This document shows, one piece after another, positions 4,213-64,000 of a stretch of 64,000 bases of DNA. Each line of letters starts with the position of its first letter. Within the stretch, counting starts at the first letter, position 1. The stretch comes from the human T2T-CHM13v2.0 reference genome, Homo sapiens, in assembly GCA_009914755.4 (NCBI GenBank), contig CP068257.2, positions 44,704,001 through 44,768,000 of the forward strand. Direction: 5' to 3'. Both the position numbers and the translations under genes were made by a program. The notes beneath the pieces are model-generated. The model did no database searches. It had not been told where the DNA came from and was given only the letters and a program-made list of their open reading frames with translations.

Positions 4213-5213
4213 TCAGCGAGGAGCCACTCCAGCACGCTCGGGAAGGGCATCGTTACTGCTGCAAACAAGCACACGGCCCTCCACGACGAACCTTTTGCAA
4301 GTGAAGGCGCACGAACAGGCCCGGAGGGACTACAAAGAAACCCAGAAACCAGACTTGGACACATGAAATAAAGGGGTTAGCTGAAGGAATACTCCACAGT
4401 TAAGGACGGCCTGCGCGAGGTCACCGGCCCTGTCTTGGTTTTTTGCCACTTCGCTCCAGTTAGTTTCCCAAGTTCCACCTACGCGCGCGCCAGCTGAGAA
4501 AACGCCCACCCCGGCGGTCCCGCCACAGGTCACAGGCGGTGCGGACCCCGGGACTGTGTCCGGGCTTCGGTGTCCAGAGAGCTCCAAGACACCCAAACCT
4601 TCCGTGGTTTCCACCTCTGCAAGCTTATGTTCCGCTGAGCTCAAGCTGAGGGACGACGACCTCATGCGACGTCAGTTTCCCCCTGGGACCACGAACCCAC
4701 GGCCCCATTTCTCTTCTGTCTACTAAAAACCTTTTCTTTTCTTTTTTTTTTGAGACCTAAGACATCAGTGAGACACACGAGCAGACACGGGCTCGGTCGG
4801 GAAAGGCGGGAGCTCCAAGCGGCGGGGCCTGCAGGTCCAGGCGGTTCGCGGGCTTTCTGACCGCATTCGGCCGAGTTCTTCTCTGAAGACCCAGGACCCC
4901 CGGCCGAGGGGGCGCATTCGGCGGGCTGGTGGCGTAGGATTTTGTTTCGGGTTCCCAGGGTCCCGGCAAGGGTGAGGGAGCCCTTGCGGATCCCCTGAGA
5001 TCCACCTCAGCAGCCTCCTCCGTGGTAGGCCTCAACTTCCCGCGGCGGCCCACAGCCAACGACTAATGCCTGAGCGGGAGAAAACGGCCTGGCCCTGTCC
5101 GGGTGGTTGCTGAGCACCGTTCGGCGCCGCCCGCGCCTGCAGGGAGCCCGGCCCGCTGTCCTGGTGGACACAAAGCCCAGGGGCCGCCCGCGCGGGACCA
5201 GCAGCGCGAACTT

Positions 5214-5221
5214 TTTGCCGC
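5214..5221 (+). promoter_or_regulatory. E2F-like motif TTTGCCGC (fits TTTSSCGC)
   Basis: aactttTTGCCGCtcggcc. Confidence 0.3.
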
Positions 5222-5242
5222 TCGGCCAGCCTGGCAGGGGAT

Positions 5243-5248
5243 TTTAAA
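5243..5248 (+). promoter_or_regulatory. CHR-like TTTAAA element 6 bp upstream of the CCAAT box
   Basis: gggatTTTAAAatcggccaat. Confidence 0.2.
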
Positions 5249-5253
5249 ATCGG

Positions 5254-5258
5254 CCAAT
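5254..5258 (+). promoter_or_regulatory. CCAAT box (NF-Y type) ~320 bp upstream of ATG
   Basis: cggCCAATcacagc inside the CpG island. Confidence 0.5.
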
Positions 5259-5351
5259 CACAGCGGGCGCCAGGCCTCCGCTTTCCGCTTACTGGTCCTG
5301 CCGTAGGAGGCGGGTACGTGAGCGCACCAATCTGTGGCCGGCGAGCGTAAA

Positions 5352-5360
5352 GGGCGGGGC
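5352..5360 (+). promoter_or_regulatory. GC box (Sp1-type GGGCGGGGC)
   Basis: aaGGGCGGGGCtccgccc. Confidence 0.5.
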
Positions 5361-5419
5361 TCCGCCCAGGCTGCACCGCCCAGAGCGCGCGTGCGCGAGA
5401 CCGGAAACGCAGCCCCCTG

Positions 5420-5424
5420 ATTGG
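5420..5424 (-). promoter_or_regulatory. Inverted CCAAT box (ATTGG) ~150 bp upstream of ATG
   Basis: ccctgATTGGcggcgcg. Confidence 0.5.
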
Positions 5425-5435
5425 CGGCGCGTGTC

Positions 5436-5447
5436 GGGGGCGGGGCC
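5436..5447 (+). promoter_or_regulatory. GC box (GGGGGCGGGGCC)
   Basis: tcGGGGGCGGGGCCgcgg. Confidence 0.5.
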
Positions 5448-5504
5448 GCGGCTGCGTGACAGTTGTCGCGGGGGAGGGCGAGCCCAAGCGCGGGGGAGGG
5501 AGTG

Positions 5505-5510
5505 TAAATA
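5505..5510 (+). promoter_or_regulatory. PCNT: TATA-like TAAATA ~65 bp upstream of ATG; TSS inferred ~25-35 bp downstream
   Basis: gagtgTAAATAgagcgaagg in an otherwise GC-rich context. Confidence 0.35.
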
Positions 5511-5573
5511 GAGCGAAGGCTGCTCTGTGTCAGCCCCGTCACCGCCGGGCGGCCCGCGCGGAGTCTGAGGGAG

Positions 5574-5627
5574 ATGGAAGTTGAGCAAGAGCAGCGGCGC
5601 AGAAAGGTGGAGGCCGGGAGGACGAAG
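5574..5627 (+). CDS. PCNT: Pericentrin exon 1, coding part (MEVEQEQRRRKVEAGRTK)
   Basis: ATG at 5574 in the CpG island; 18 codons; donor GTAAAC at 5628; continues in frame into exon 2. Confidence 0.9.
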
Positions 5628-5845
5628 GTAAACATTAGGGGCTTCTTCTCTAGCTGCTCTGGCGTGAAGTCCTAAGGGCGGCTCCGGTGCCCGCCACCGC
5701 CCCCTGCCAGGAGAGGACGCGGTCCGGCGGAAGCCGCCGCGGAGGTCTCGCTTTTTCCCGCCGGCTCCGCTGGAAGCCGCCTCCTGGCCGCCGCCATCTT
5801 GAATCCGCCGCTCTCCGCCAGGTCCCGCCCCCGCCGCGGCCACAG

Positions 5846-5850
5846 CCAAT
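5846..5850 (+). promoter_or_regulatory. CCAAT box inside intron 1, GC-rich context
   Basis: cacagCCAATcagcggcc, followed by GGGCGG motifs. Confidence 0.3.
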
Positions 5851-5880
5851 CAGCGGCCGGGACGCGCGGCGCCTCTCGGG

Positions 5881-6025
5881 CGGGCCGGGGCGGGGCTGCG
5901 CCGCGCCTGCGTCGGGGGGTGGGTGGGGCGCGGGCTGGGCGCGGTGCACGCCGGGGCGGGGTGTGGCTGCAGGGCGGGGCTACAGGGGCGTGGCGTGGCT
6001 GCACGGAGGGGGTGGGGCGCGGCAG
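5881..6025 (+). repeat. G-rich imperfect tandem (~30-36 bp units) / G-quadruplex-prone cluster at the start of intron 1
   Basis: Repeated ggggcggggt-gtggctgca / gggcggggctacaggggcgtggcgtggctgca blocks; many GGG(G) runs on the + strand. Confidence 0.6.
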
Positions 6026-7729
6026 GCGCTGGACCCCAGGCTGGATCTTCCAGTGGCTCCCGCGTCCTCCGGGACCGGGTGGCCTGGGGCGGGCGGCCGG
6101 TATTCGGGTGGCTGCTTGGTCTAGGGCCAGTTTCCTGCGCGGCCGGGGCCGGGGGCGTGGCGCGGGTGGCCTGCAGCGCCTCCCCAGGGTGCGCCTTCGC
6201 CTCGTCCGTCGGAGATGCTTTCCCCGCGCGTTTCTCGCGGCGTTGCAGTCCTTACTGTGTGAAAGGCCCCCGCGGCGCTCCCGGCCGCCGTCTTCTTCCC
6301 GCGCCCTTGGGCTCGCGTCCTGCCCGTCCGGGCCTGGCGTAGCGCTGCCGGGAACGCACGCGGCGCTGGCGCCGGGCGCCTTCAAGGGACGCGCTCCCGT
6401 CTTTCTCCCGCCCCGGGTTTCTCCGTGAAAAAGCGCTCGGTTTGATGGCCACTGTCCTAGGTTTCGTGGGAATAAAGCGCGCAGAGCCCATGACTCGGGG
6501 GCAGGAGAAAGGGAGTCCCGAAAGCGCGAGGCGGAACCGCGGGAGCAGGCCGGCCTCTGCGAGGTGCGCGCGGCTCCCCCCCAGGATGTTCTGGCTGGGG
6601 TGCTGGGGAAGAGCGGGGCTCCCGGGCACGGCGGACAGGGGACGCGGGGCTAGGCCGGGGAAGGGCTGAGGCGGGCAGGAGGGGAAGGGGAGCCCGGAGC
6701 CTGCAGGGAGCTGCGAACAGGAGCAGAGCTCCCAGGAGGGTGGAGGGGGGAGGGAGGGACAAGACGCCGCCTGTAGGGCGACGCAGGCCGCAGACCAGGT
6801 CTGTGCTATATCCCAACATGGATAGGTGTGGTGGAGGAGGACATGAAAATAAACGACATGAGGTTGACTTTGAAGGAAATATTTCCTTGAGAGACCATTT
6901 TCTTGTGTAAATGGCCTTGTGTAATTTTTCTGGGTCCATGAGCTTGTGTACTTGTGTTATCATTTACACAAATGTGTGTTCCATGCGTTTGTTTTTGTGG
7001 CCACAGTTGTCTTTTGAGGGAACAGATGTCTCCCCGTGAAAGGCTGATGTGGGATCGATCGCATACCTCTTGAGTAAGACGTTAGCGGGAGATGAGGCTC
7101 GCACATAGTCTCAAACTCTCGGATTTGAGGACTGAGCAGAGCTAGGCTGTGCCTTCTGATGGGCGATGCTCTGTGGATGTCCCTGGTGCTTTGGTGAGCT
7201 GTGTCATGAAAAATAGAACATCTGATTCCATAAAGGAAGATGTGAGATTGACCTGGCTTAATTAATTTTTTGCTATTTCTGTATCTTGTCTCAGAATCTA
7301 TGGCTAGGAAGTTTTGGCTGGGCTATATATTTCTTCAGTTGGGGGAAAATTGGGGCAAGAAGGGAGAGATTTAGCTTTTATATCATTTTAAAACTTAAAT
7401 ATGCCTTGATTAAGCTATCAATCTTTTATACAAATTTTTTTTAAAGTTTTATTTTTCTGTAAACTGCCAAGGGCTAGGAAAGCTATTCTGCCAATCAGCC
7501 GTATGGTTTTCTTTACCAGGCATAATTAGCAGTCCTCATTGTTAGACCCCTTGGATATAGATATTGATGAAGGCAGTGTTTGTGGAGAGCCATCTGTTGG
7601 CCAGGTGTGGCAGAGTAGACTGGGTCAGCCCTCGGGCCTCATGGTCCCCACCAGTCTGTTGACTTTGTGGTTCTGTTATTTTTTTCTCACTTACCTTTGC
7701 CTTTACTACTTATCTACATTTTTGCGCAG

Positions 7730-13600: not shown

Positions 13601-14184
13601 CTAGTGCTATAGAAGGCTTAAGAAGTGTGGTTCTAGCACTTTTCCAACTCATATTTGTATCAAATACCAGGAAAAATAGTTATCACCATTTATCATCTAG
13701 ATTTCTGGGCCGTTTTACTGTTTTGTCATTTTAAGTTGTTTTACACGTAATTTACAGAAGTAAGAATAAAGCAATAATTTAAAACAACTTTATAAGAAAT
13801 TTGATCCAACCTCTTTGTATCAAGTAAGTTTTGACACACAAACATTAGAAGTGTCCTCTTAAGGAAGTGGATGGTCCAGGTTCCTTTGAAGTGTGATCAT
13901 TCATGTGAGCGGGCAGCTGATTGAGACTACTGTGTCCCCTTTTCGTCCCTCACTTCCTCTTGATTCTGAGAAGATTGATCTAGGGTATTGTCAAATGAAG
14001 ACTTGTCTGAGATTTTATTTTCACGTCAGTTTTGCCATCATCATTGGCCATGGGTGCTCTCTCTCTGCATTCATCTTGTGACTCATCTAATGATCCCGAA
14101 AAGTCGACACTGTCATGTTTCTTTGCTATTTTGGGAAGAAATTGAAATGTTCTTAGTGAATCATCTTGTTAAAGCAAGCTAATC

Positions 14185-46987: not shown

Positions 46988-47434
46988 AGGCCTCGCCCTC
47001 CCCATGGGCCCCCATGGGCAGTGTCCCTTCCCTGTTGAGGAGCAGAGATTACCTTGGGATTCTTGGTTGGATGCTGGCTCGGACGCTGTGGTGTGAGTAG
47101 GAGGTTGGTTGTGCCTGCCGTGCGTGGCTCTGGCGGGGATGTGTGTGTGCCATCTCTTGCTGAGGGCGCTGGTTCCTACCTGTGGTCTGTGACCTGGCGA
47201 CTCCCATGGCTTTGGCCTTTGGCCTCTGGGCTTCTCTGGCTTCATGGGGCCTCTTCACTCTCCCACTTACTATTTCTGGTGGTCGAGGGAAAAGTAGTAA
47301 GAGCAGTTAAAATCCCGAAACGATGACCTGAACAGTTGAAGTGGCATTTCCTGTGGGAAACTGACTTGGCTTTTGCAAGGGTCAATGCTTCCTGATGCAT
47401 GTTTAACTGTCCTGTGTTCACTTTGTTGCTGCAG

Positions 47435-47990
47435 GTTTTTAGAGGAACGTAAAGAGATCACCGAGAAATTCAGTGCGGAACAAGATGCCTTCCTGCAGGA
47501 GGCCCAGGAGCAGCATGCCCGTGAGCTGCAGCTCCTCCAGGAGAGACACCAGCAGCAGCTCCTGTCAGTGACGGCGGAGCTCGAGGCCAGACACCAGGCC
47601 GCGTTGGGCGAGCTGACAGCCTCCTTAGAGAGCAAGCAGGGGGCTCTGCTGGCTGCACGTGTGGCCGAACTGCAGACAAAACACGCTGCCGACCTCGGCG
47701 CTCTGGAGACCAGACATCTGTCCAGCCTTGATTCTTTGGAATCCTGTTACCTGTCTGAATTTCAGACCATCCGTGAGGAGCACAGGCAGGCCCTAGAGCT
47801 CTTACGAGCAGACTTTGAGGAACAACTGTGGAAAAAGGACTCTCTTCACCAAACGATTTTGACTCAAGAGTTGGAGAAACTGAAGCGGAAACACGAAGGG
47901 GAGCTACAGTCTGTGCGGGACCACCTGCGAACCGAAGCGAGCACAGAGCTCGCCGGAACCGTGGCTCACGAGCTGCAGGGAGTGCACCAG
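47435..47990 (+). CDS. PCNT: Pericentrin exon 15 ((R)FLEERKEITEKFSAEQDAFLQEAQEQHARELQLLQERHQQQLLSVTAELEARHQAALGELTASLESKQGALLAARVAELQTKHAADLGALETRHLSSLDSLESCYLSEFQTIREEHRQALELLRADFEEQLWKKDSLHQTILTQELEKLKRKHEGELQSVRDHLRTEASTELAGTVAHELQGVHQ)
   Basis: Acceptor cactttgttgctgcAG at 47433-34; donor cag|GTAAGG at 47991; 556 nt, ends phase 0. Confidence 0.9.
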
Positions 47991-47994
47991 GTAA

Positions 47995-48462
<468 letters not shown>

Positions 48463-48744
48463 TGGGCTTTAAAACACTGAGTTGAAGGGTTATTTTGATC
48501 GCAGGCACCTTGTTAAAGGCTTTGCTCTCGTACGTATGTGGGAGGGCCTAGACCTTGGTGGGGGATTTTGTGGGCTTTGGAGTATTCCTCAAGGCTGACC
48601 AGCACCTCTGCAGAAGACTTGGTTTCCAGGCTGCTGTGGGAAGATCTGATGGTCATGTTGTGTATTCAGAGCCTTGGTCCCCTCCTTTATTGATGTTTCC
48701 TGAAATAAAACCCTTTTGCTACATTTCAAGAGCAGTGATGGGCC

Positions 48745-49320
<576 letters not shown>

Positions 49321-50099
49321 TCATTTGACAGGCACTTCCAAGTTTTTATCATGAAGAAGAATTTCTGGCGAAGTCCCTCTTGCCCTGGGCTGGCGCCTGA
49401 CTGCAGAAGCTGCAGTGCCTGTGACTCAGGAAAGGACACGTGTTGTCGTATCACACACACCTTGTGCTTTCTCTGCCCTCAGTGAGGTCTCTGAGGTTTT
49501 CTCACCTTGAAATAGATGAGTCTGCTCTGTTGAGCATGTGGAGCCACTGGGGCTGGCCTATCTCCCTGCAGGAAGGGGATGCATAGGCCTGGCTGCACGG
49601 TGGATGGGGCATGGGCTAGAGCTGATGAGGCAGTTAGAAATGGTTGTTCTGGCAGATCAATACCTTGTCAGACGTTTAAGAAGTACACGTTCCAAACTAT
49701 AAACGAGGGAATTGCCAGCTTGGATAAGGTGGATACGTTGATTTCCTGATACCAGCATGCCACGGGAGGGCTTCCTCCTTCCTGACTGTGGGGAACAGTT
49801 GTGAGGCTCCAAAGCGTTGGCTTATTGTTTGCTTTCCTTCAGCTCTGTGTAAGAACAGGAGAAAAGTGGAACCTTCTTTAATCGCTGTGAGGGTTTCATG
49901 TTATGTTTCAGGCTGTCTGTTTTGTGTGGTCTGAGCATGTGATCTTGGGGGAATTCCTAGAAAGCAGAATATGTTCAGGCTCCCTCTGCTCTCCTGAGTA
50001 AGGTGCAGTCAGTTGCCTGTCTCAGGCCTCTGTGTCCTGTCCTTGTCTTCACCACATGTCAGGGAGTCCTGGGGATGTGTTTTGTTTGTTTCTTTTTTG

Positions 50100-50228
50100 T
50101 TTTTTAAAAGACAGGGTCTCCCTGTGTTGCCCAGGCTAGTCTCGAACTCTTGGGCTCAAGAGATCCTCTTGCCTTGGCCTCCCAGGTAGTTGGAATTACA
50201 GGCATGAGCCACTGCTCCCAGCTTGGGA
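50100..50228 (-). mobile_element. Alu fragment
   Basis: ttttttaaaagacagggtctccctgtgttgcccaggctagtctcgaactcttgggctcaagagatcctcttgccttggcctcccaggtagttggaattacaggcatgagccactgctcccagc. Confidence 0.8.
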
Positions 50229-51471
50229 GGTGCCTCTTGAGAGAAGCTGGAGCCATGTTGTCTTTCTGGACAAAATTAGACAGGGGTCTGATGCTGCTGG
50301 GAGCTGCCCTCCAGGCCAGTCCTCAGATGCCAGCTTCAGTTTCCTTTCGTTCCCAGTTTTGATCATAGGCAAACAGATGCTTTGGAGAATAGCACTTGTT
50401 CCCAAGCTGTGGATTTAAAATTAGGTTTTCTTGGTTTGTTTGGTTTAAAGAAAATGAAGTTCGGAAAGAATATTCAGAAAGGAGGAACTTGCATATCACA
50501 CATGAAGTGTGTGTTTCAAACCACGGCCTGATTTAGTCAGAGGAAGCATGTGGAGCGTGTGCACCTTCTGTGCCCTGTGTGGGGATGTGGCACATCTGGA
50601 TGTTTCCTGGACGGAAGGAGCTGGTCGCAGCCCTGTGCAATCAGATATGCCTGCTGGAGGCAGAGAGGACCAAAGCCCTGGACAGGGTGGGTGCCAAGGT
50701 CCTGCTCCTGGAGCATCAGCACCAAGCGGCCCTGCAGGAACTCAGAGATGTACGCTGCCAAGATGCAGGAGCATCAAGCAGGGCAGGCGGAGCTGGAGGA
50801 GCCGGGGGAGCCGGAGGTTCTGGGGGTGCTGGGGGAGCTACAGGTGCTGCGGGAGGGGCTGTGCAGGTGAGCAGCTCCACGTGTGTGGTTCCCACAGGGG
50901 TGCCTCCCCGGCTTCTCTGCCCTGAGTCTTCATCAGAGCGTTCAGGCACTTACGGATACACTTGGAGCCGCTGGATTGTGCGTGCAGTGGGGTCTGTGCT
51001 CAAAGAGTGCAGCTTCGTGGGGGCAGATGTGTCAGTGCACCTGGCCAGCGAGGCAGCTGCAGGGGTGGGCATCCGGGGGGGGGTGTCTTTGGTTGGCCTC
51101 CCCTCCTGTTGGGGCCTCCGGAGGGCAGGGTTCTGGTCTGGTCTGCAGGCAGTGAGTGGTCTGTGGCGCGACCAGATCTGTCCTACAGGCTACTTGGCAG
51201 CTGGACGAAACACAAAGTGGAGGCGATTCAGAGCCTGGGAGGTGCGGGGGTCGGGGAGGCTGGGGCTCATCCTGGGTGTCGCGCTAGGCAGCTGGGGGGA
51301 TAGTGAGGGGTGCCTGCCAGCTGATGATGGCATAGGGAGGGGCATGGAGAGCCTGGGGGCTGACAGGGGAGGCCACGCTTAGCTGGAGGGGTCATCCCAG
51401 GTTGGACTGGTGCAGGGGATGTGGCTTGTGTAGACACAGAAGCACATTTAGTTGCTCTTATAAATCTGCAC

Positions 51472-52048
<577 letters not shown>

Positions 52049-52064
52049 TTATTTTCTTTCTTTC

Positions 52065-52340
52065 TTTCTTTTTTTTTTTTTTTTAAAGACGGAGTCTCAA
52101 AAAAAGTCTAGAGTGCAGTGTCACGATCCTGGCTCACTGCAACCTCTGCCTCCCAGGCTCAAGCAGTCCTCCCACCTCAGCCTCCCAAGTAGCTGGGATA
52201 CAGGCACGGGCCACCACGCCTCGCTAATTTTTATTGTTTTGTCTCCCAGGCTGGTCTTGAACTCATGGGCTCAAGTGATCCTCCCGCCTTGGCCTCCCCA
52301 AAGCACTGGGATTACAGGTGTGAGCCTCTGCACCTGGCCA
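52065..52340 (-). mobile_element. Alu SINE just upstream of the CA-rich array
   Basis: ttttttttttttttaaagacggagtctcaaaaaaagtctagagtgcagtgtcacgatcctggctcactgcaacctctgcc...caggtgtgagcctctgcacctggcc. Confidence 0.9.
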
Positions 52341-52626
52341 GTGTAGTTACTTACTTTTTCAGTTTTTTAAAATCTTGTGTGTCAGAATATGCGTAAGCAC
52401 TGGTACCAAATTGTGTCAGAAGAAGCCAGACTGAGTAGTCGGAATCCCCCTTGGATTCCCAAGGTGGCCGTGAAGGGGCCTGGCTGAGGTCCCCTGCCAC
52501 CTGCTGTGGTCTTGATTCTCTGCACCTATGCAGGACTGCATTTAAGCAGCAAGGTCTCCCCACTTGTGGACCCGTGCACCTGCCCCATCCAGGCGCCACC
52601 ACCCCGCCTGCTGGTCTGCATGATGA

Positions 52627-53278
52627 GCACACGCACACACAGCACATGTGCACACACAGCACATGCACACACACATGCAGACACAGCACATACAGCACAT
52701 GTGCACACAGCATGTGTGCACACACACAGCACATGCACACACAGCACATACACAGCACATGTGCGCACACAGCACATGCGCATGCTCACACAGCATGTGC
52801 GCACAAACAGCACATACATAGCACATACACACATGCAGCACATGCGCACACACACAGCACATGCACACACACAGCACATACATGCAGCACTCACAGCATA
52901 TGTGCCCATACAAGGCACATGCACACAGCACATGCGCACACATAGCACATGTGCATACACAGCACATGCACACATGCAGCACACTCACAGCACATGTGCC
53001 CATACAAGGCACACGCACACACACAGCACATGCACACACAGCACACACACAGAGAGCACATGCACACAGCACATGTGCACACACAGCACATGCACATACA
53101 CAGCACATGTGCACGTGTAGCACATGCATGCACACAGCACATACACATAGCAGATGTGCACACAGCACGCACACACAACACGTGCACACACATGCACACG
53201 TGCTTACACAGCACATGTTCATACAGCACATGCTCATACACGCAGCACATGCACACATACACAGCACATGCACACATG
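52627..53278. repeat. ~650-bp CA-rich complex tandem array (CACAGCACATG / GCACACA units) in intron 15
   Basis: Continuous variants of acacagcacatgtgcacacacagcacatgcacac; purine-pyrimidine alternation with embedded ACATGT/CATG palindromes. Confidence 0.9.
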
Positions 53279-53889
53279 TCATTCTGCATGTTGTCCTGCA
53301 GGATGAATGCCTGGGGCCCTCCTGCTTCTGTGTTCTGGGTCTGTACGATTTTCTGGCCTTTCTGTGGGGGGAGGGTTAGAGTCTGGAGCACTTCAGAAAT
53401 AATTGATAATTTATTTGAAGCATTATGTGCAAATTTTAGGTGATTATGGTACATATGGTTTCAAGGGGGTTTTAAACAAGGACATGCTAAGATCTCATTT
53501 CTAGCCATAAAGTAAGGTTTTGAACCTGAAAGGTTTGCTTGGTGAAGAGGGACTGCTCCTGAGAATGGGTGATGCAGCGCCGGATTCTGAGGTTAGAAAT
53601 GACTTGTTTCTTCACGTGGACAGCTCTGGGTGCTGCCCAGTGTGGACACTGGCCCCTCAGTCCTGAGGCACAGCCCTGAGACCTGCACCCTGCTGGGTAT
53701 CGTGTGGGTCTGTCTTCTCTGGAAAAGTCAGATTCTGTCTCGCTTTTCCAGGGACTCATGCTAAAGAAATTCTGTCCGTTTTATCTGTGCATAGCACAAG
53801 GAGGTGTTCGTTTTCTGAAATCGTGTGTCACCTGTGTCCTTTAACCTGTACTTTTGTTCTTCTAGGGTGACTGTTGTTGTTGTTGTTTT

Positions 53890-54976
<1,087 letters not shown>

Positions 54977-55397
54977 TTATGTTTTTTGGGGCAGAGGGCA
55001 GCATTTGCAGGAATAGAATAACTCAGCAAGCCCCCGGTCCCGCTGGTTAGTGGGGTGCACGTTCAATACATCAGTCCCCCTCTCCTCCTGATTGTTTAGA
55101 AGCAAATCCAAGACACCATGTGTCTGCGAGTGAGGTGTTTTCCCCCAATACAGCATAACCATGATCCATTCTCACCTAAAACATCCACAGCGATCCCTGC
55201 ATTTCATCACAAGCCCAGCCCACGTGCCAGTCTCTTCTGGCTGGCTCACATCAGGATCTATTTGTTCCTGTGATGCTGGTCACTGTTCCCTCGTTCCTGC
55301 AAGCGTGTTGGTAGATCCACAGGCCTGTGATTGGTGAGAATGCTTCTTGTATGGTGGCCACTCCTCTCCTGGTCTCCTGGTCTTTCCTCAGGCTTTA

Positions 55398-55766
<369 letters not shown>

Positions 55767-58444
55767 TCATTGTCCCAGAATAGCTGGGATGTCCTGTTCT
55801 TCCCCGCGGCGATGCTTTATCTGAGCCTCAAATATCTTTGCACCTGTTGGAACAGCAGTCACTTGTCAGCAGTGTGACTTGACCTACACTTGTGGGGTGA
55901 TTGGATTACTTTCCGGGATACCGCCCTTGAGAGTTTGGTTGTGAGGAAAGTCCTCTGAAAACGTAAGCTTGATTTCTTTTTGATAGAAGTATGTATCCCA
56001 TAAGATTCCCCTGCCCTGCCCTGCCCCGCCTGTGCTGGTAACACGACGCAGAGCTGAGTGCAGAAGTGAATCGCATGCGGCCGGTGTGGGATGCTCAAGG
56101 CGGTGTCATCTTTTCTCGGATTGAAAACCCAAATCTATTCATAGGTTAATTATTTTAATATTAAGATAATATTAACGTTGGTTTAGATAGCATTTGAATG
56201 TCCTAAATGCGTTCTCAATTGAATGTCTTTGCCTTCTGACATTGGTATTCTCTGTGCATGCCACTTACTTATGATTAAAACATATGTGATATTTTTCTAT
56301 AATTGTGTGGATTTTAGAAAAACCTGAAAATAACTTTTTTTGAAACGTCTTTTTTGATACTGACCTCACAGCTTAGAAGAACATGGTCAATTTAAAGAGT
56401 TTTATTCCAGGCTAGAGCCTCTGCCAGGGGGTTGCAGGAAGAAAATCTCCTTTGAGCCGGCCGGTCAGATTGAGGGGGTGGCTGAGGACGCACGCTTCTG
56501 CTCGACATTGTGGCCGAGCCGAGGCCCTGGGCCTGAGGGATCACATGTGGGGCACTGGCCGTCTCACTGCTGGGCCTGCATGCCTGTGACCTGCCCAGCC
56601 CTGCCCGACGTCTCCTGGGGGCTGTCCCCCCGCGGGGAGCCGCCTCATTTGGCCTCCACCACCTCCTACGTCCTCTGCAGGTCTGCCGAAGGCCTGAGAG
56701 TGTGCAGGCAGGACAGGGCCAAGCGTGGACAGTTAGGGTGGCTCCCCTGGGTGCGAGGCGGTACCTGCGGGTGGTGCTGTGCCTTGAAACAAAGCGAAGG
56801 TCAAGACTGCACACATGGAGCTTCCAGCTGCCAGTGGGTGGAGGGAGCGCCACCTCTGTCTGCCATGCCCGGGCGTCCTGGTGGGCTGCGTGCAGTGTTG
56901 GCACTCCCTGGCTGGGGTTCTCTGTGGAGCCTGCCCTCTACCCTCTCCGTCTGCAGTGTGTGACTCTGGGATCCCGGAGGCCGCGGGGCTAGAGCGTGGC
57001 ACCAGCTGTGCTCCTGAGTGGGGCGTAGTTTGGGACGCCTGGAGCTTAGGCCAGGCTCCGCAGGCTCTGGGGGTGTCCAATGTTCTTGGGCTCCCGTGTT
57101 GGCCTCAAACAGAAGTTTGATTTTCTCATTGTTACACGGTAGGCCTCTATGAGAGATTTTTGTCCAAAGAGAGTAAGTAGTCTGTGGCTCAGAAAGATGT
57201 TCAAAGGACCACTGATTTCAGCCTTGGACTCTTGCCACATCCTTTGCTGGGCACCGGGAGCGCAGAGGTTTGCCCTCGGGCCCCACAGGCTGACGCTGTG
57301 GATGCCAGGAGGGAAGCGCCTGATCTGTGCCTGGCTGGGCCTGAGGAGCCCGTCCACTGTGTCTGAGCATGAGCTGTTGTGGGCACCATGGTGGCGCCTG
57401 GTCTTGAGGATTAATTTTCCTGTTTTCCCAGTCCCTTGGCCTCTGTCCTGCCGGGTGCATTGGCATTTGGGGTTTTGTTCTTGAATTCACCAGCGTTTTG
57501 TGGTTGGTGTACACTGAACCAGCATCCCTGTTTGGACCTCTTACTCCTGGCCCGCTGCCCCCTCCCTGGCTGTTGGTCCGGATCAATGCGTCTGTCCCCC
57601 AGGAGACGCACTGCTGATGGTTGGGGTATCAGCAAGGTAATTAAAGTTCTTTGGAAACTTTGTAGTGTGCACAGCTCAGAAGTTAATCTTAAGTCCTTCC
57701 TTTCAAACAGATGGAACTAAATCAAATCCAGGAGAGAAAGTTGATTAAAGTGAACTGTACTCACATTCCAAATGGCCTTGAGACCTTGCGAGTGACTTCA
57801 GTGTTGTGCCGTGCGAACCCGTTTCTGGTCCCTGTGACTAAGATGCAGATGCACAGCCCACCTGGCACCTCAGCAAGTTCCAGGCCGGCGCGGGGGGCAC
57901 CCGATCCTTTATCCTTTTCCTCCCCATGGCTTATCACACAAAAAAGGTAGAGAATAAAGGTCATTTCTGGTGTCAGGGCTTCCATGTGTTTATTGAAACT
58001 GTTGCCCCAGTTACTTCAGAAAAGGCACTCACTCATTGTTGACGTCTTCCTCCTCCTGAAGCTGGTGGAGCCCCAGCCCTCAGCCCTCCTGGCCGTGCTG
58101 GGCAGGGAGCGGGAGCCGGCAATCCACCCCAGATGTTCTGGAGCAGCAGGTCCCGGAGCAGCAGGTCCCACTGCTGAGGACATGGGCTTCGTGCTGTCCT
58201 TTCCTGCCTGCTAAGTAGATACAAAAAACTTACTTTATCAGTTACCTTTTCACATGCCAAGTCAAAACACAAAATAATTTCATTGTCTTAAAACTGAGCT
58301 TTTTCTAGGCAACTTTTGTCAGGCCTTTTTATATTTAAATCTGCTGTGTAACACACCTTTTCTACCAAGAATCTGTCATCACTTATCTTAGAGCTGAGAA
58401 AAGTTTATTCTAAAATATTTCATCACCTCAAAAAGAAACCCCCA

Positions 58445-58700
58445 GTGGCTCGTGCCTATAGTCCCAGCACCTTGGGAGGCTGAGGCAGGAGGATTGCTGG
58501 AGCCCAGGAGTTCAAGACCAAAAATAAAAAAATACTAAAAATAAAAAAATTAGCCTGGCATATTGGCGTGCCCATATAGTTCCAGCTACTCAGAGGCTGA
58601 GGTGGGAGGACCACTGGAGCCCAGAAGGTTGAAGCTGTAGCAAGCTGACATCGCACCACTGCACTCCAGGCTGCATGACAGCAAAACGTTGTCTCAAAAG
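58445..58700 (+). mobile_element. Alu SINE (diverged)
   Basis: cagtggctcgtgcctatagtcccagcaccttgggaggctgaggcaggaggattgctggagcccaggagttcaagacc...cactgcactccaggctgcatgacagcaaaacgttgtctcaaaag. Confidence 0.85.
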
Positions 58701-60994
58701 ATAATCAATGAAAATTAAGGAAGAAAACAAGAAACTCCCCATTCTCCCTTCTCCCCCATGCCTGGTGATGTGCCGTCTGCTTGCCGTACCTGTGGGCGTC
58801 CTACGTACATAGACTCAGCGTGTGCCCTCGGTGTCCGCGGCTTTCACTTTGTGTGTTTCCCAGGTTGGCGCACGTTGTAGCATGTGTCAATACTTGCTTG
58901 GTATGTGTTTTCTGCATATCTTATGCCCTTTTTGTTCTGTATTCCTCCATTACTGCCTTTTTTCACTTTAATTTCCTTGATGTTTCCTTTACCATACGGT
59001 GGTCGCCCCTTACCCACAGGGGATGCATTCCAAGACCCCCAGTGGGTGCCTGAAATCGTGAATGGTTCTGAACCCCTTATATGCTGTTTTTGTCTATACA
59101 TACCTGTCATCAACTTTTACCTTAAAGGAATCACCCTGTGGTGTCTCTGGCATATCTGAATTGCTCCGTCATCAACTTTTAACTGAAAGGCATCACTCTA
59201 TGGTGTCTCTGGCACGTCTGAATTGCAGCATTGCAATTGAACGGCCTCTCTTGCGCTTTGGGGCCGTTATTAAATGAAGTAAAGGTGACTTGAACACAGG
59301 CACTGTGATGCTGTGACAGTTGGTCTGATCACCGAGATGCCTGCGTGTGGGCAGGTAGTGCTTGCCACGTGGATAACGCCGGACAGAAGGATGACCCCCG
59401 GCCTGGCCTGCGAGATTTCCTCACACCGTTCAGCTTGGGGGCAGGCAGTTTAACACTCATAAGAGTTGTTTACTTCTGGAATTTTTCATACGATATTTTC
59501 AAAATGACGTTGAACACAAGTAACTGAAACCGCAGACAAAGGGGACTGATATATATTGAGTTATTTTCTTAGCGCTTGCCCTGAGCGTTACAGCAAGCAC
59601 CTTCTAACAATCTGGTTTGGATTAATACCAACTTAATTTTAAAAGTTTACAAAACCATTTGCTAATGTAGCATCATTCCCTCGTCTGCCCTTTGTGCTCA
59701 TATTGTCGTACCAACCACATCTTTCTATCTTTTTGTGCTCGTTACTTTATGCACGTGTCTTTTAAACCAGGAGGAAGAAGAATTGTAAACAAAAGCCATG
59801 TTGTTTTGTCTCCTGTTTTCTCTGTGTCGTTACCTGCACTACTGCTGCTCGTTTCTTCCTGGAAATTCAGGTCTGGTGCCTTATGTTTCAGCCCGAAGGA
59901 CTTCCTCTGGGATTTCTTGAAGGACAGGTCTGCTAGTGATGAATCCTCTTAGCTTTTGTTTTTGTGGGAATGTCTTAATTTCTCCTTCATCCTTGAGAGA
60001 TCATTTCCTGGATGTGGACTTCAAGATCCAGGCTTTTCCTTCAGTGCTGCGTGGGCTCTCCGCTGCCTCCCCTGTCATCCGGGGCTGCGTGTCGTGAGCT
60101 GCGCCCGTCTTCCTGGGCTGCGTGTCGTGAGCCGCGCCCGTCTTCCCGGGCCGCGTGTCGTGAGCCGCACCCATCTTCCTGGGGCTACGTGTCTTGAGCG
60201 GCACCCATATACCTGCTGTGCACTGGCTGGCCTCAAGCTTTGTCCTGAACCCTGCTGAGGTTTGGCTGTGATGGGTGAAGTGTGGGTCTCTGTCAGTTTG
60301 TCCTACTTGGAGTTCATTGAGCTTGTATGTGGGGATTATTATTTTTATTATTATTGTTATTTTCATCAAATTTGGGAGGTTTTTGGCCGTCGTGTCTTCA
60401 AGGGTTCCTCTGCCCTTTTCTCTCCCTCTGTCTGGCTTGAGGGTGCCCCGCAGGCCTTGGAGACTGCTGAGTTTTCTTCATGTTTCTTTCTGTTCCCTGA
60501 CTGGATCGTCTTAATTGACCTATCTTCCAGCGTGTGAATTCTGTCTTCTGCCTGCTCGAGTCTGCTGCCGAACCCCTCTCTAGTGAATTTTTTTTTCTGT
60601 GATTGTATTTTTCAGCTCCAGATGTCAAGGGAGCTCTATTTCAGTCTTTCTCTCTGCTGAGGGCCCTGCGTGCATTGTGCCCTCAGGGCTCTGGCGGGCG
60701 GTGGACAGCCTGGCCCTGGCCTTCACCCCTGCTGTGCCAAGCCACATGGTCACTGCAGCCGGCCCAGGACCTCTTGGGCCTTTCCAGCGTGGGCACAGCC
60801 CTGCACGTGTTCACACCTTGTAGAGTCCCAGAAGATGTCAGAGCTTTCCAGAGGCCCCTGTGGACATCGCATTCTCAAGTGTTTTCTTTTGTTTTTCTGG
60901 CAGTCCCTTATTAGTCCCAACTGGTTTCTCTACTGTGGGCAGTGCGGCTATTAAACACTTGACACTGACTGTTTCCAACCGGTGCCCTGGGGTA

Positions 60995-61298
60995 GATTTT
61001 TTTTTTTTTTTTTTTTTTTTTTGAGACAGAGTCTCTGTCGCCCAGGCTAGAGTGCAGTGGCGCAATCTAGGCTCACTGCAAGCTCTGCCTCCCAGGTTCA
61101 CACCATTCTCCTGCCTCAGACTCCCGAGTAGGTGGGACTACAGGTGCCCACCACCACACCCAGCTAATTTTTGTATTTTTAGTAGAGATGGGGTTTCACC
61201 ATGTTAGCCAGGATGGTCTCGATCTCCTGACCTTGTGATCTGCCCGCCTTGACTTCCCAAAGTGCTGGGATTACAGGCGTGAGCCACCGCGCCCGGCC
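60995..61298 (-). mobile_element. Alu SINE
   Basis: tttttttttttttttttttttttttgagacagagtctctgtcgcccaggctagagtgcagtggcgcaatctaggctcactgcaagctctgcc...ggcgtgagccaccgcgcccggcc. Confidence 0.9.
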
Positions 61299-61721
61299 AA
61301 CCCTGGGTAGAATTTTTGACACCGAGAGCTCTGACCCAGTCACGGCAGCAAGGTGCCCGGCAGGTGGGCTCGGGCAGTTGTGCATGGAAATTTTGGGGTG
61401 CTCCAAATCCATTCTGTCCCCCACCCCACCCCAGCAGCTACTGGTTTTCAGGGCTGTTAGATTGGAGAGGAGATATGGAGTCAGGGCAAAGTTAAGCACC
61501 TGAAGTTTGTTCTTATGGACACTCAGCCTGTGTTTTCCATAAACACTCTTCGGATGATTGCAAACCTGACCAGATTTCCACAGCTCTGAAAACACTGGTT
61601 TTGATGGTTTTTACCACTTTTTCTTTTATAGAGGAACAGATTTTGGAGGTCCTTACTTTGCCATTCTAGAAGTGCTACCTCTGGAAGTTTAAAAAAATAA
61701 GCTTATTTCATTAATTTAATT

Positions 61722-62084
<363 letters not shown>

Positions 62085-62521
62085 CTATTGAACCTTATTT
62101 AAAAGGTTTTGTTATTTAGAAAGAAGGTTTAATCTTTTAAAAGGGAAGGAACCTAGGTTTCCAAATATCTTGGGTTTTCATGGCTGTAATTCCTTGATGG
62201 TGAACTTCTTAGTGTGACTCTTAAAGATGTTACAGGAGCCATTTGGGAATGGTAGTGAGCAGTTGCTTATGACACGCAGCTGTCACCAGTGCGAACTTGT
62301 GTCTCCTTAAGTGTTTTATCCCCGAAACCAGGACTTTGTGTTCCCAGTGAAGTCCTTGAACCCATGTTTTCTTTGATGGGGGCTGTGGTCTGGCTCATCC
62401 CGGCTCTTGGTGCAGAGTGGGGGCTCCATGCATATCTGCTGAATGTGCTGAATTCCGGCTAACAGCAAAGAAAGTATTTTTCTAGCTTACTGGTATTTTT
62501 TATTGTTATTGATGTGTACAG

Positions 62522-62668
62522 GGTGAATTTGGAAGTGAAAAGAAAACTGCTTTGCATGAAAAAGAGGAGACACTTCGGCTTCAGAGTGCACAGGCACAGC
62601 CTTTTCACCAAGAGGAGAAAGAGTCTTTGTCTCTGCAGCTTCAAAAGAAGAATCACCAAGTCCAGCAG
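62522..62668 (+). CDS. PCNT: Pericentrin exon 16 (GEFGSEKKTALHEKEETLRLQSAQAQPFHQEEKESLSLQLQKKNHQVQQ)
   Basis: Acceptor ttttttattgttattgatgtgtacAG at 62520-21; donor cag|GTGTGT at 62669; 147 nt, phase 0-0, compatible with exon 15; charged coiled-coil-like translation. Confidence 0.7.
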
Positions 62669-62737
62669 GTGTGTGGAATACGCTGTTCCCTTGTGATAAG
62701 ACGTGTATAGCATAAAAATCATTTTCACTTTATTTCA

Positions 62738-64000
62738 GTGCACAGTTCAGTGGCAGGAGTGCACTCATGGTGTTGTGCATTTATAGTGTTGTACATTCAG
62801 TGGCGGAAGCGCATTCACAGTGTTGTAGATTCAGTGGCGGAAGCGCATTCACGGTGTTGTGCATTCAATGGCGGAAGCGCATTCACCATGTTGTATATTC
62901 AGTGGCGGAAGCGCATTCATAGTGTTCTGCATTCAGTGGCAGAAGCACATTCACGGTGTTGTGCATTCAGTGGCGGAAGCGCATTCATAGTGTAGATTCA
63001 GTGGCGGAAGCGCATTCATAGTGTAGATTCAGTGGCGGAAGCGCATTCATAGTGTTCTGCATTCAGTGGCGGAAGCCCATTCACGGTGTTGTGCATTCAG
63101 TGGTGGAAGCGCATTCATGGTGTTGTGCATTCAGTGGTGGAAGCGCATTCACAGTGTTGTATATTCAGTGGCGGAAGCGCAATCACAGTGTTGTATATTC
63201 AGTGACGGAAGCGCATTCACAGTGCTGTGCATTCAGCAGCAGAAGCGCATTCACGGTGTTGTATATTCAGTGGCGGAAGCGCATTCACCATGTTGTATAT
63301 TCAGTGACGGAAGCGCATTCACGGTGTTGTGCATTCAGTGGCAGAAGCTCATTCACAGTGTTGTGCATAGTTCAGTGGCGGAAGCACATTCACGGTGTTG
63401 TATATTCAGTGGCGGAAGCGCATTCACGGTGTTGTGCATTCAGTGGTGGAAGCGCATTCACGGTGTTGTGCGTTCAGTGGCGGAAGCGCATTCACGGTGT
63501 GCGTTCAGTGGCGGAAGCGCATTCACAGTGTTGTATATTCAGTGGCGGCAGCGCATTCACAGTGCTGTGCATTCAGTGGCGGAAGCGCATTCACCGTGTT
63601 GTATATTCAGTGACGGAAGCGCATTCACGGTGTGCATTCAGTGGCGGAAGCGCATTCACGGTGTTGTGCGTTCAGTGGCGGAAGCCCATTCATGGTGTTG
63701 TGCATTCAGTGGCGGAAGCGCATTCACGGTGTTGTGCATTCAGTGGCGGAAGTGCATTCACAGTGTTGTATATTCAGTGACGGAAGCGCATTCACAGTGC
63801 TGTGCATTCAGTGGCGGAAGCCCATTCACGGTGTTGTGCATTCAGTGGCGGAAGCCCATTCACAGTGCTGCGCATTCAGCAGCGGAAGCGCATTCACAGT
63901 GTTGTATATTCAGTGGCGGAAGCGCATTCACAGTGCTGTGCATTCAGTGGTGGAAGCCCATTCACGGTGTTGTGCATTCAGTGGCGGAAGCGCATTCACA
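62738..64000. repeat. 34-bp minisatellite, at least 37 copies, running past the window end, in intron 16
   Basis: Unit gcattcagtggcggaagcgcattcacggtgttgt with variants (tgtatattca / tgtagattca), continuous from ~62738 to the last base. Confidence 0.95.

What the first reader, a model, noticed from the sequence alone, without database searches (positions are those of the whole stretch)
50618..50866. Candidate frame-preserving cassette exon in intron 15 (69-nt and 249-nt versions)
In the exon 15/16 reading phase (0-0) there is a stop-free segment beginning after aAG|gag at 50616-17. It reads ELVAALCNQICLLEAERTKALDR to a GTGGGT donor at 50687 (69 nt), or continues through VGAKVLLLEHQHQAALQELRDVRCQDAGASSRAGGAGGAGGAGGSGGAGGATGAAGGAVQ to a GTGAGC donor at 50867 (249 nt). 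The first part has a heptad-like hydrophobic pattern resembling pericentrin coiled coils. The 3' part is a (GGNGCN)n Gly/Ala repeat. Both versions are multiples of 3. Against it: the polypyrimidine tract before the acceptor is weak, and GC-rich DNA gives long ORFs by chance.
Basis: inference. Interest (0 to 1): 0.5.

Follow-up and report, generated by a model that had tools for sequence, protein, structure and literature searches.

The report
Relic of an ancestral pericentrin exon
The open reading frame in human PCNT intron 15 is the leftover of a real coding exon that rodents, the colugo and another mammal still splice into pericentrin, but in human and tamarin it carries splice-site and frame damage and evolves neutrally, so it is most likely a skipped, decaying exon rather than a working cassette exon.

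Summary
Positions 50618-50866 are stop-free and 249 nt long. They are flanked by aAG| and |GTGAGC and sit in the phase-0 intron between PCNT exons 15 and 16.

What makes it special is homology. Region 50444-50866 is the collinear orthologue of a 201-219-nt coding exon, here called "16a". In mouse, rat, jerboa, colugo (RefSeq XP_008592355.1) and another non-primate mammal, 16a lies between the equivalents of exons 15 and 17.

- The 50867 donor is the ancestral donor.
- The ancestral acceptor CAG is CGG in human.
- A 2-nt deletion shifts the frame, so the "Gly/Ala repeat" is an out-of-frame reading. A 35-nt G-rich insertion restores the frame.
- The tamarin copy is 272 nt, not a multiple of 3.
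- dN/dS is 0.13 between colugo and the other mammal, but 1.19 between human and tamarin.

Human exon 16 is a different, non-homologous exon ("16b").

Verdict: an exon relic. Residual low-level splicing in human is not excluded.

The parts
47435..47990 (+). PCNT exon 15 (ends in phase 0, donor CAG|gtaagg)
   Evidence: Exon map and spliced translation.
50444..50528 (+). Intronic block upstream of the relic. It aligns with the sequence just upstream of rodent Pcnt exon 16a and serves as a synteny anchor.
   Evidence: blastn of L002, L003 and L004 against the window: 66-68% identity, E from 5e-6 to 1e-3, collinear with the exon-body hits; alignment A1.
50600..50614 (+). Eroded polypyrimidine tract and the mutated ancestral acceptor. 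Human has CGG at 50612-50614 where colugo, the L012 mammal and tamarin have CAG|. C50612-G50613 is a CpG.
   Evidence: Alignments; sequences; PWM.
50615..50749 (+). 5' part of the exon-16a relic: 45 codons (KELVAALCNQICLLEAERTKALDRVGAKVLLLEHQHQAALQELRD) in the ancestral reading frame.
   Evidence: 29/45 residues identical to colugo 16a; SW 129 against 28+/-5 for shuffles. Against the mouse exon p=0.0025. omega is 0.20-0.29 against colugo/L012 but 1.19 against tamarin.
50687..50692 (+). It lies in the Val codon of the conserved DRV motif and is not a splice site in any species that uses the exon.
50751..50752 (+). Site of a 2-nt deletion relative to colugo, L012 and rodents (GATGT--AC). Tamarin has a 17-nt deletion here.
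   Evidence: Alignments.
50752..50817 (+). About 66 nt of ancestral exon sequence now read out of frame. The ancestral ..HTAEMQ.Q.AE.. reads as RCQDAGASSRAGGAGGAGGAGG in the cassette frame; the +1 frame still reads KMQEHQAGQAELEEPGEPE.
   Evidence: SW permutation against the colugo 3' part: +1 frame p=0.015, cassette frame p=0.97. Against mouse: 0.043 and 0.40.
50818..50852 (+). About 35 nt of primate-specific G-rich insertion (part of the period-9/27 tandem repeat). It brings the total length back to 3n in human. Tamarin has about 70 nt here.
   Evidence: End-anchored alignment; TRF. The exact borders depend on the alignment.
50853..50872 (+). Last 14 nt of the relic, back in the ancestral frame (..GAVQ against colugo ..EAAQ), followed by the conserved ancestral donor CAG|GTGAGC (GT at 50867).
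   Evidence: Human GGGGCTGTGCAGGTGAGCAGCTCC against colugo GAGGCTGCACAGGTGAGCAGTTCC and L012 GGGCTATGCAGGTGAGCTGCTCC. PWM 6.9, the same as the colugo and L012 donors.
62522..62668 (+). Human PCNT exon 16 ('16b', GEFGSEKK..HQVQQ). It fills this slot in the human mRNA and is not homologous to 16a.
   Evidence: No similarity to mouse or colugo 16a (p=0.50 and 0.83). An intact-looking orthologue lies in colugo at L011 21279-21422.

Best explanation
Window 50615-50866 is the human orthologue of an ancestral placental PCNT coding exon, here called 16a. In mouse, rat, jerboa, colugo and at least one further non-primate mammal, 16a is an intact 201-219-nt phase-0/0 exon between the equivalents of exons 15 and 17. 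It encodes a coiled-coil-type segment (EELAAAL..RRLLEEER.VALDRV.AEVLLLE.QHQAAL..). A mouse-type transcript contig shows it spliced in, and the rat, jerboa and colugo protein models include it. In anthropoid primates this exon has dropped out of the main transcript, which joins exon 15 to a different, non-homologous exon (16b, human exon 16). The relic has since drifted. On the human lineage the acceptor AG became GG, and a weak AG arose 3 nt downstream. A 2-nt deletion shifted the frame of the middle third, which now reads as Gly/Ala. A G-rich tandem expansion of about 35 nt happened to restore a 3n length. The ancestral donor survives. The long open frame results from this ancestry together with a G-rich, T-poor strand. 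Shown: orthology, the shared frame, the lesions, and relaxed constraint between human and tamarin. Inferred: that the relic is not spliced to a meaningful extent in human today.
For: Transcript and model evidence:
- A rodent transcript (P0007/L001) runs exon 15, then QQDPAMALHNEG..DQVAQ, then the exon-17-like VRDKVFLL...
- The mouse genomic ORF P0016 shows this is a single 210-nt exon.

Orthology:
- Rodent genomic contigs hit the window only at 50444-50528 and 50614-50804, collinearly, and never at exon 16.
- A profile search found colugo XP_008592355.1 with ..KLQGAHQ|EELAAALHDQRRLLEEERIVALDRVDAEVLLLEHQHQAALPVLGD..EEAAQ|LKEQVLSLSHEIE... It also found jerboa and rat pericentrin and genomic ORFs of other mammals.
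- In the colugo locus the order is exon 15, 16a, a 16b-like segment, exon 17.
- Human 5' part against colugo: 29/45 residues identical, z about 19.

Splice sites:
- Colugo, L012 and tamarin have CAG| where human has CGG.
- The donor CAG|GTGAGC is conserved in human, tamarin, colugo and L012.

Indels:
- Human has -2 and +35 nt, giving 252 nt.
- Tamarin has -17 and +70 nt, giving 272 nt.

Selection on the 5' part:
- omega is 0.13 for colugo-L012 and 1.19 for human-tamarin (14 nonsynonymous, 4 synonymous).
- The binomial P is 6e-4 against omega 0.2 and 0.51 against omega 1.
- Exons 13-15 between human and tamarin give omega 0.25-0.35.

Primate transcript: fragment P0001 joins ..HELQGVHQ directly to GEFGSEKK...
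Against: - No human RNA data could be examined, so skipping in human rests on three things: the reference-type mRNA structure (my knowledge, consistent), one primate transcript contig, and sequence decay.
- The human copy is still open and 3n, keeps a strong ancestral donor, and has an AG in frame 3 nt from the old acceptor. These would allow some inclusion.
- The omega contrast rests on 18 substitutions. In rodents, which do use the exon, omega is already 0.5-0.8, so high omega alone does not prove disuse.
- The tamarin length could be affected by assembly error in a G-rich repeat.
- The colugo and jerboa proteins are computational models.
Confidence: 0.8

Rival explanations
1. The segment is still a functional, low-inclusion or tissue-specific alternative exon of human PCNT. 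It would be the 249-nt form, from the new AAG| acceptor to the ancestral donor. It would add the ancestral coiled-coil half plus a new Gly/Ala-rich linker produced by a compensated frameshift.
For: Open frame, 3n length, in-frame AG at 50616-17, and a conserved strong donor with PWM 6.9. The net indel change of +33 nt preserves the frame.
Against: The acceptor scores -5.6, with A at -3 and purines from -4 to -9. That is at the median of decoy AGs and below all 15 real acceptors. omega is about 1.2 between human and tamarin. Tamarin is not 3n and differs by non-3n indels. A 3n length has a 1 in 3 prior, and a G-rich, T-poor strand rarely makes stops. Neither protein search with the cassette returned any protein containing it, though that index proved incomplete.
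Confidence: 0.12
2. Exon 16a is a lineage-specific gain (exonisation) in rodents and colugo, and the human state is the ancestral non-exon.
For: None specific. Only the fact that no outgroup beyond placental mammals was obtained.
Against: The exon has intact splice sites and an open frame in three separate groups: Glires (mouse, rat, jerboa and other rodent contigs), Dermoptera, and a further non-primate mammal without Alus. There is strong purifying selection between colugo and L012, with omega 0.13. The human lesions are derived states relative to all of these and partly relative to tamarin.
Confidence: 0.04
3. It is a chance open frame in GC-rich intronic DNA with no exon ancestry.
For: Long stop-free frames are common in this window. 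The strand is G-rich.
Against: There is significant, collinear DNA and protein homology to a spliced exon of other mammals in the same frame, with the same donor.
Confidence: 0.01

Closest known systems
Rodent and colugo pericentrin exon between the exon-15 and exon-17 equivalents ('16a'; mouse QQDPAMALHNEG..DQVAQ, colugo EELAAALHDQRR..EEAAQ in XP_008592355.1)
   Same: The genomic position is orthologous. The reading frame is the same for the first 45 codons and the last 14 nt. The donor is the same. DNA identity over the 135-nt 5' part is 74-75% to colugo and L012; the exon-body blastn hits to rodents are 58-62% identical.
   Different: The human copy has lost the acceptor AG. It carries a 2-nt deletion and a 35-nt repeat insertion. 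It is absent from the reference-type transcript. It evolves neutrally between human and tamarin.
Lineage-specific exon loss leaving a pseudoexon or exon relic in an intron (a known general phenomenon; from my knowledge of the comparative-genomics literature, no specific paper consulted)
   Same: It is homologous to a functional exon in other species, skipped here, with splice-site and frame lesions and relaxed constraint.
   Different: It has no in-frame stop yet. The frameshift is compensated in length, and the donor is fully intact. It is therefore a 'soft' relic that is only one substitution away from the ancestral acceptor.
Disease-type cryptic pseudoexons activated by deep-intronic variants (for example the GHR 6-psi pseudoexon cited in PMC8530715)
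   Same: An intronic unit with a strong donor and a near-miss acceptor. The ancestral acceptor would be recreated by a CpG transition at 50613 (CGG to CAG), with PWM context 1.5, above the weakest real PCNT acceptor.
   Different: No such PCNT variant or activation is documented in the papers searched. Inclusion would be in frame (84 codons) rather than truncating. This is inference only.
Human PCNT exon 16 ('16b', 62522-62668)
   Same: It occupies the same slot in the mRNA, with the same phase 0/0 and a coiled-coil-like composition. Both 16a and 16b look intact in colugo.
   Different: There is no detectable homology to 16a (permutation p 0.09-0.83), so tandem exon duplication is not supported. 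No 16b is detectable in the rat intron.

Membership tests
Functional cassette (alternative) exon of human PCNT | Usable 3' splice site (AG with a polypyrimidine tract) | tested here: not met
   AAG| at 50615-17 scores -5.6. That is about the median of 3555 decoy AGs and below all 15 real acceptors, whose minimum is 0.27. The ancestral AG is mutated to GG. The PWM is approximate and recalled from memory.
Functional cassette (alternative) exon of human PCNT | Usable 5' splice site | tested here: met
   CAG|GTGAGC at 50867 scores 6.9 (top 0.1% of decoy GTs) and is the conserved ancestral donor.
Functional cassette (alternative) exon of human PCNT | Frame-preserving and stop-free between the phase-0 flanking exons | tested here: met
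   249 nt (252 nt from the ancestral start) with no stop. This is not conserved in tamarin, where the unit is 272 nt.
Functional cassette (alternative) exon of human PCNT | Transcript evidence (junction reads or cDNA) | not testable with these tools
   No RNA-seq is available. The only primate transcript contig (P0001) skips it. No protein containing the cassette turned up in the word-index searches, but that index is incomplete.
Functional cassette (alternative) exon of human PCNT | Purifying selection on the encoded peptide within primates | tested here: not met
   Human-tamarin omega is 1.13-1.19, against 0.25-0.35 for exons 13-15. There are non-3n indels in the 3' part.
Orthologue of mammalian PCNT exon 16a | Collinear position between exon 15 and exon 17 equivalents | tested here: met
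   In colugo L011: exon 15 ends at 13609, 16a is 13732-13950, the 16b-like segment is 21279-21422, and exon 17 starts at 22041. In rat L017 the tblastn match to 16a spans 27476-27673, between exon 15 (ends 25866) and exon 17 (starts 36646). In human the order is 47990, 50615-50866, 62522.
Orthologue of mammalian PCNT exon 16a | Significant sequence similarity at the DNA and protein level | tested here: met
   blastn E from 4e-6 to 8e-4 for five rodent contigs, and 7e-28 for colugo. SW permutation p<2e-4 against colugo and 0.0025 against mouse.
Orthologue of mammalian PCNT exon 16a | Same reading frame and splice sites | tested here: inconclusive
   The frame is shared for codons 1-45 and for the last 14 nt. 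The middle part is shifted by a 2-nt deletion. The donor is conserved, but the acceptor AG is lost in human and kept in tamarin.
Exon relic / pseudoexon from lineage-specific exon loss | Disabling or derived lesions relative to species that use the exon, plus relaxed constraint | tested here: met
   The lesions are CAG to CGG at the acceptor, a 2-nt deletion, and a 35-nt (tamarin 70-nt) repeat insertion. omega is 0.13 in users and 1.19 in human-tamarin.
Mutually exclusive exon pair arisen by tandem exon duplication (16a/16b) | Detectable homology between the two exons | tested here: not met
   SW permutation p=0.09 for colugo 16b against 16a, and 0.24-0.83 for other pairs. There is no DNA hit.

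The most novel reading that the evidence does not exclude
The relic is not dead. In the human lineage it would have been remodelled into a new alternative exon: a new AAG acceptor 3 nt from the lost one, the ancestral donor, and a frameshift compensated by a repeat expansion that replaces the old Q/E-rich tail with a Gly/Ala linker. It would be included at low level or in specific tissues together with exon 16b. A related, likelier variant: 16a and 16b coexisted in the primate-colugo ancestor, since both look intact in colugo. Lineages then fixed different ones, so that 'exon 16' of human and mouse pericentrin are non-homologous.
Probability: 0.1. Interest if true: 0.6.

Novelty: new member of a known kind. 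Interest (0 to 1): 0.4.

Why it matters
- **Cross-species mapping.** The 49 residues of human exon 16 and the 70 residues of mouse 'exon 16' are not homologous. Residue-by-residue mapping between human PCNT and mouse Pcnt therefore breaks down here. PCNT is the gene mutated in MOPD II and Seckel-type primordial dwarfism.
- **Annotation.** The result explains why gene predictors stumble at this site. The tamarin GenBank annotation carries a 52-residue 'hypothetical protein' that is only this relic.
- **Clinical interpretation (inference).** The relic keeps a strong donor, and its ancestral acceptor is a single CpG transition away (50613, CGG to CAG). It is therefore a concrete place to look for pseudoexon activation when interpreting deep-intronic PCNT variants.
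- **Evolution.** It is a clean, datable example of exon turnover inside a coiled-coil scaffold protein.

Tried and rejected
- **Internal duplication of another PCNT exon.** tblastn and blastn of the segment against the window and against a recalled full-length PCNT gave nothing significant.
- **Known RNA family in intron 15.** There were no Rfam hits in 47000-64000.
- **Word-index protein searches with the cassette.** The first was swamped by Gly/Ala low-complexity candidates. The second found no protein containing the cassette. This negative is weak, because the same collection does hold the tamarin and colugo sequences, which surfaced only in the HMMER profile search.
- **BLASTP of the cassette against the rodent transcript protein.** Not significant. 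The homology became clear only from genomic DNA alignment and from closer outgroups.
- **A resemblance I saw by eye between human exon 16 and mouse exon 16.** Rejected by permutation, p=0.50.
- **A shared LLEEERI heptamer between colugo 16a and 16b, suggesting exon duplication.** Rejected, p=0.09-0.44.
- **My interim conclusion that the ancestral donor is lost in primates.** This was an alignment artefact caused by the primate repeat insertion (A1, A2, A7). An end-anchored alignment corrected it.
- **Metagenome scan for host-contaminant orthologues.** One query alignment was unusable and the other found nothing.
- **Literature searches** (PCNT with pseudoexon, with intron 15, and pericentrin isoforms). 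Nothing turned up on this exon.
- **Search for a 16b relic in the rat intron.** Nothing detectable, so the age of 16b beyond primates and colugo is open.

Full report
**1. The observation**

The window carries PCNT exons 1-16 on the + strand. I located the exons by tblastn with a recalled pericentrin sequence, used only as a probe, at 87.5-100% identity. I then fixed their borders at GT/AG. The 16 exons splice into an open 1117-codon CDS. Exon 15 is 47435-47990 and exon 16 is 62522-62668, and the junction is phase 0.

They are preceded by aAG. In-frame GTs lie at 50687 (GTGGGT) and 50867 (GTGAGC). The segment lies in an 843-nt stop-free frame, the third longest in the window. It is unique DNA between Alus, on a G-rich strand with GC 0.61-0.64.

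I scored splice sites with an approximate PWM recalled from memory and calibrated it on this window.

| Site | PWM score | Comparison |
|---|---|---|
| Candidate acceptor (50618) | -5.6 | 54% of 3555 intronic decoy AGs score as well or better; the 15 real acceptors range from 0.27 to 12 |
| Donor 50687 | 3.5 | top 1.7% of decoy GTs |
| Donor 50867 | 6.9 | top 0.1% of decoy GTs |

Intron 15 alone holds 11 stop-free, 3n AG..GT units at least as good on both sites; that count includes the candidate's own versions. It also holds 12 units whose two sites both reach the weakest real PCNT site, a threshold the candidate fails.

The segment has no paralogue among PCNT exons. There is no Rfam match in the intron.

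**3. What it really is**

*Rodent evidence.* A protein search with the flanking exons returned a rodent transcript fragment, P0007. In it, the exon-15 equivalent (..DLQGAHQ) is followed by QQDPAMALHNEG..QASQDQVAQ and then by the exon-17-like VRDKVFLLNRELEECR. It contains nothing resembling human exon 16. Genomic ORFs from mouse and other rodents show that this is one 210-nt exon with the borders ..tctcag|CAG.. and ..CAG|gtaag.

*Orthology to the window.* I aligned these rodent genomic contigs to the window. Their upstream flank hit 50444-50528 and the exon body hit 50614-50804. The hits were collinear across five contigs, with E between 4e-6 and 1e-3. None hit human exon 16.

*Outgroups.* A profile of the rodent exon plus the human translation was searched with HMMER against 1.84 billion proteins. 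The informative hits were:
- colugo pericentrin (Galeopterus variegatus XP_008592355.1);
- jerboa pericentrin (Jaculus jaculus);
- a transcript-derived fragment (P0024) whose cluster includes rat pericentrin;
- genomic ORFs from further mammals.

The colugo protein reads ..KLQGAHQ|EELAAALHDQRRLLEEERIVALDRVDAEVLLLEHQHQAALPVLGDVHTAEMQKQQAEHAKLRELEAPLEEAAQ|LKEQVLSLSHEIE... The human translation KELVAALCNQICLLEAERTKALDRVGAKVLLLEHQHQAALQELRD matches it at 29 of 45 residues. The Smith-Waterman score is 129, against 28+/-5 for shuffles.

In the colugo locus, exon 15 ends at 13609. This exon is 13732-13950, with borders ctctctgcag|GAGGAG and GCACAG|gtgagc. Exon 17 starts at 22041. A further mammal, contig L012, has the same exon with ..cttggcag|GAGGAG and ATGCAG|gtgagc. 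That contig covers exons 13-15, and none of its matches to the window is an Alu.

I call this exon 16a.

**4. Anatomy of the human copy**

These points come from alignments A2 and A7 and an end-anchored exon alignment.

- **Acceptor.** Colugo, L012 and tamarin have CAG|GAG GAG CTG. Human has CGG AAG GAG CTG. The ancestral AG (50613-14) is now GG. The pyrimidine tract (ctctctctg in colugo) is ttcctggac in both primates.
- **Codons 1-45 (50615-50749)** are in the ancestral frame.
- **Frameshift.** A 2-nt deletion lies at 50751/50752. About 66 nt of ancestral sequence is then read out of frame. The +1 frame still reads KMQEHQAGQAELEEPGEPE, against colugo EMQKQQAEHAKLRELEAP (p=0.015).
- **Insertion.** About 35 nt of G-rich tandem repeat is inserted (TRF period 9/27).
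- **3' end.** The last 14 nt return to the ancestral frame. The donor CAG|GTGAGC at 50867 is the ancestral donor: human GGGGCTGTGCAGGTGAGCAGCTCC, colugo GAGGCTGCACAGGTGAGCAGTTCC.

My earlier alignments had misplaced this donor because of the insertion, and I corrected that.

The net length change in human is +33 nt, giving 252 nt, which is 3n. Tamarin has -17 and +70 nt, giving 272 nt, which is not 3n.

The 69-nt donor at 50687 is the GTG (Val) codon of the conserved ..LDRV.. motif. Other species read through it as coding sequence.

**5. Selection**

| Comparison | Region | omega |
|---|---|---|
| Colugo vs L012 | 16a, 5' part | 0.13 |
| Human vs colugo / L012 | 16a, 5' part | 0.20 / 0.29 |
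| Human vs tamarin | 16a, 5' part | 1.19 (14 nonsynonymous, 4 synonymous) |
| Human vs tamarin | exons 13-15 | 0.25-0.35 in frame, mostly about 0.9-1.2 out of frame |
| Among rodents | whole exon | 0.5-0.8, one pair 1.5 |

The 16a values are, the exon 13-15 values and the rodent values. For the human-tamarin comparison, the binomial probability of 14 or more of 18 substitutions being nonsynonymous is 6e-4 under omega 0.2. It is 0.008 under 0.3 and 0.51 under neutrality.

In rodents the exon is used but weakly constrained, so omega alone would not be decisive. It agrees with the structural lesions.

**6. The exon that replaced it**

Human exon 16 (16b) shows no similarity to 16a of mouse or colugo (p=0.50 and 0.83). 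It has no paralogue in the window.

Colugo has an intact-looking orthologue at L011 21279-21422. It is 144 nt long and open, with borders ttttgtgcag|GGT and CAGCAG|gtctgt. It is 51% identical at the protein level, with omega 0.47. It is not in the colugo RefSeq model.

The rat intron between 16a and exon 17 has no detectable 16b.

So 16a is old, being shared by Glires, Dermoptera and another mammal. 16b is at least as old as the primate-colugo ancestor. Anthropoid primates kept 16b and let 16a decay. A primate transcript contig (P0001, 97% identical to human) joins exon 15 directly to 16b.

**7. Mechanism and likelihoods**

The most likely reading (about 0.8) is an exon relic that the spliceosome skips. 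It lacks a usable acceptor, and its open frame reflects ancestry, a T-poor strand, and a one-in-three chance of 3n length.

Orthology, frame, lesions and relaxed constraint are shown. Non-use in human is inferred.

A still-used, remodelled alternative exon cannot be excluded without RNA data (about 0.12). Exon gain in the other lineages (about 0.04) and pure chance (about 0.01) are effectively excluded.

By inference, C50612-G50613 is a CpG. A G-to-A transition there would recreate the ancestral CAG acceptor. Its context scores 1.5, above the weakest real PCNT acceptor. The relic is therefore a plausible site for pseudoexon activation.

**8. Comparison with what is known, and novelty**

Lineage-specific exon loss that leaves an intronic relic is a known kind of event. 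I found no paper that mentions this one. I therefore rate it a new member of a known kind, of moderate interest.

It corrects the assumption that human and mouse 'exon 16' correspond. It explains a spurious gene model in tamarin. It also gives a testable site for interpreting deep-intronic PCNT variants.

Noticed in passing
window 62777-64000 (runs off the window end): A 34-nt minisatellite (GCATTCACAGTGTTGTGCATTCAGTGGCGGAAGC) with more than 36 copies and 86% matches. It starts about 110 nt after the exon 16 donor. It produces the 972-nt stop-free frame at 63027-63998.
   Followed up: partly
L011 21279-21422 (colugo, Galeopterus variegatus): An orthologue of human PCNT exon 16 that looks like an intact exon. 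It is 144 nt long and open, with good acceptor and donor and omega 0.47 against human. It is absent from the colugo RefSeq model XP_008592355.1, which uses only exon 16a. Colugo may use both exons.
   Followed up: partly
L010 14745-14901 (tamarin, Saguinus oedipus GCA_031835075.1): GenBank annotates a 52-residue 'hypothetical protein P7K49_032345' (KAK2089679.1). It consists only of the 16a relic, from the retained CAG acceptor to a tamarin-specific GT. The unit is 157 nt, not 3n.
   Followed up: yes
window 48100-50440 compared with L011 13610-13731: The intron between exon 15 and 16a is 122 nt in colugo, 1.6 kb in rat, and 2.6 kb in human. The extra human sequence includes Alu insertions.
   Followed up: partly
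window 48181-48435, 52089-52319, 50111-50185 and others in intron 15: Twelve further stop-free, 3n AG..GT units have both PWM scores at or above the weakest real PCNT site. Several overlap Alu-like repeats. None was examined for homology.
   Followed up: no
window 56400-57100 and 5200-7000: A GC-rich patch in intron 15 (GC 0.65) has CpG observed/expected of only 0.45, so it is not a CpG island. The region around exon 1 (GC 0.69, observed/expected 0.93) is one. It also holds the longest stop-free frames of the window, on both strands.
   Followed up: partly
window 52500-53400: A stretch with strongly negative GC skew (-0.32 to -0.36) and positive AT skew (up to +0.50). It carries long stop-free frames on both strands (831 nt on the minus strand, 630 nt on the plus strand). 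It was not identified.
   Followed up: no
PCNT coding exons (not located in this window): The PhyloCSF survey PMC6886504 lists PCNT among genes with a coding signal in an alternative reading frame overlapping annotated exons. I did not look for it here.
   Followed up: no
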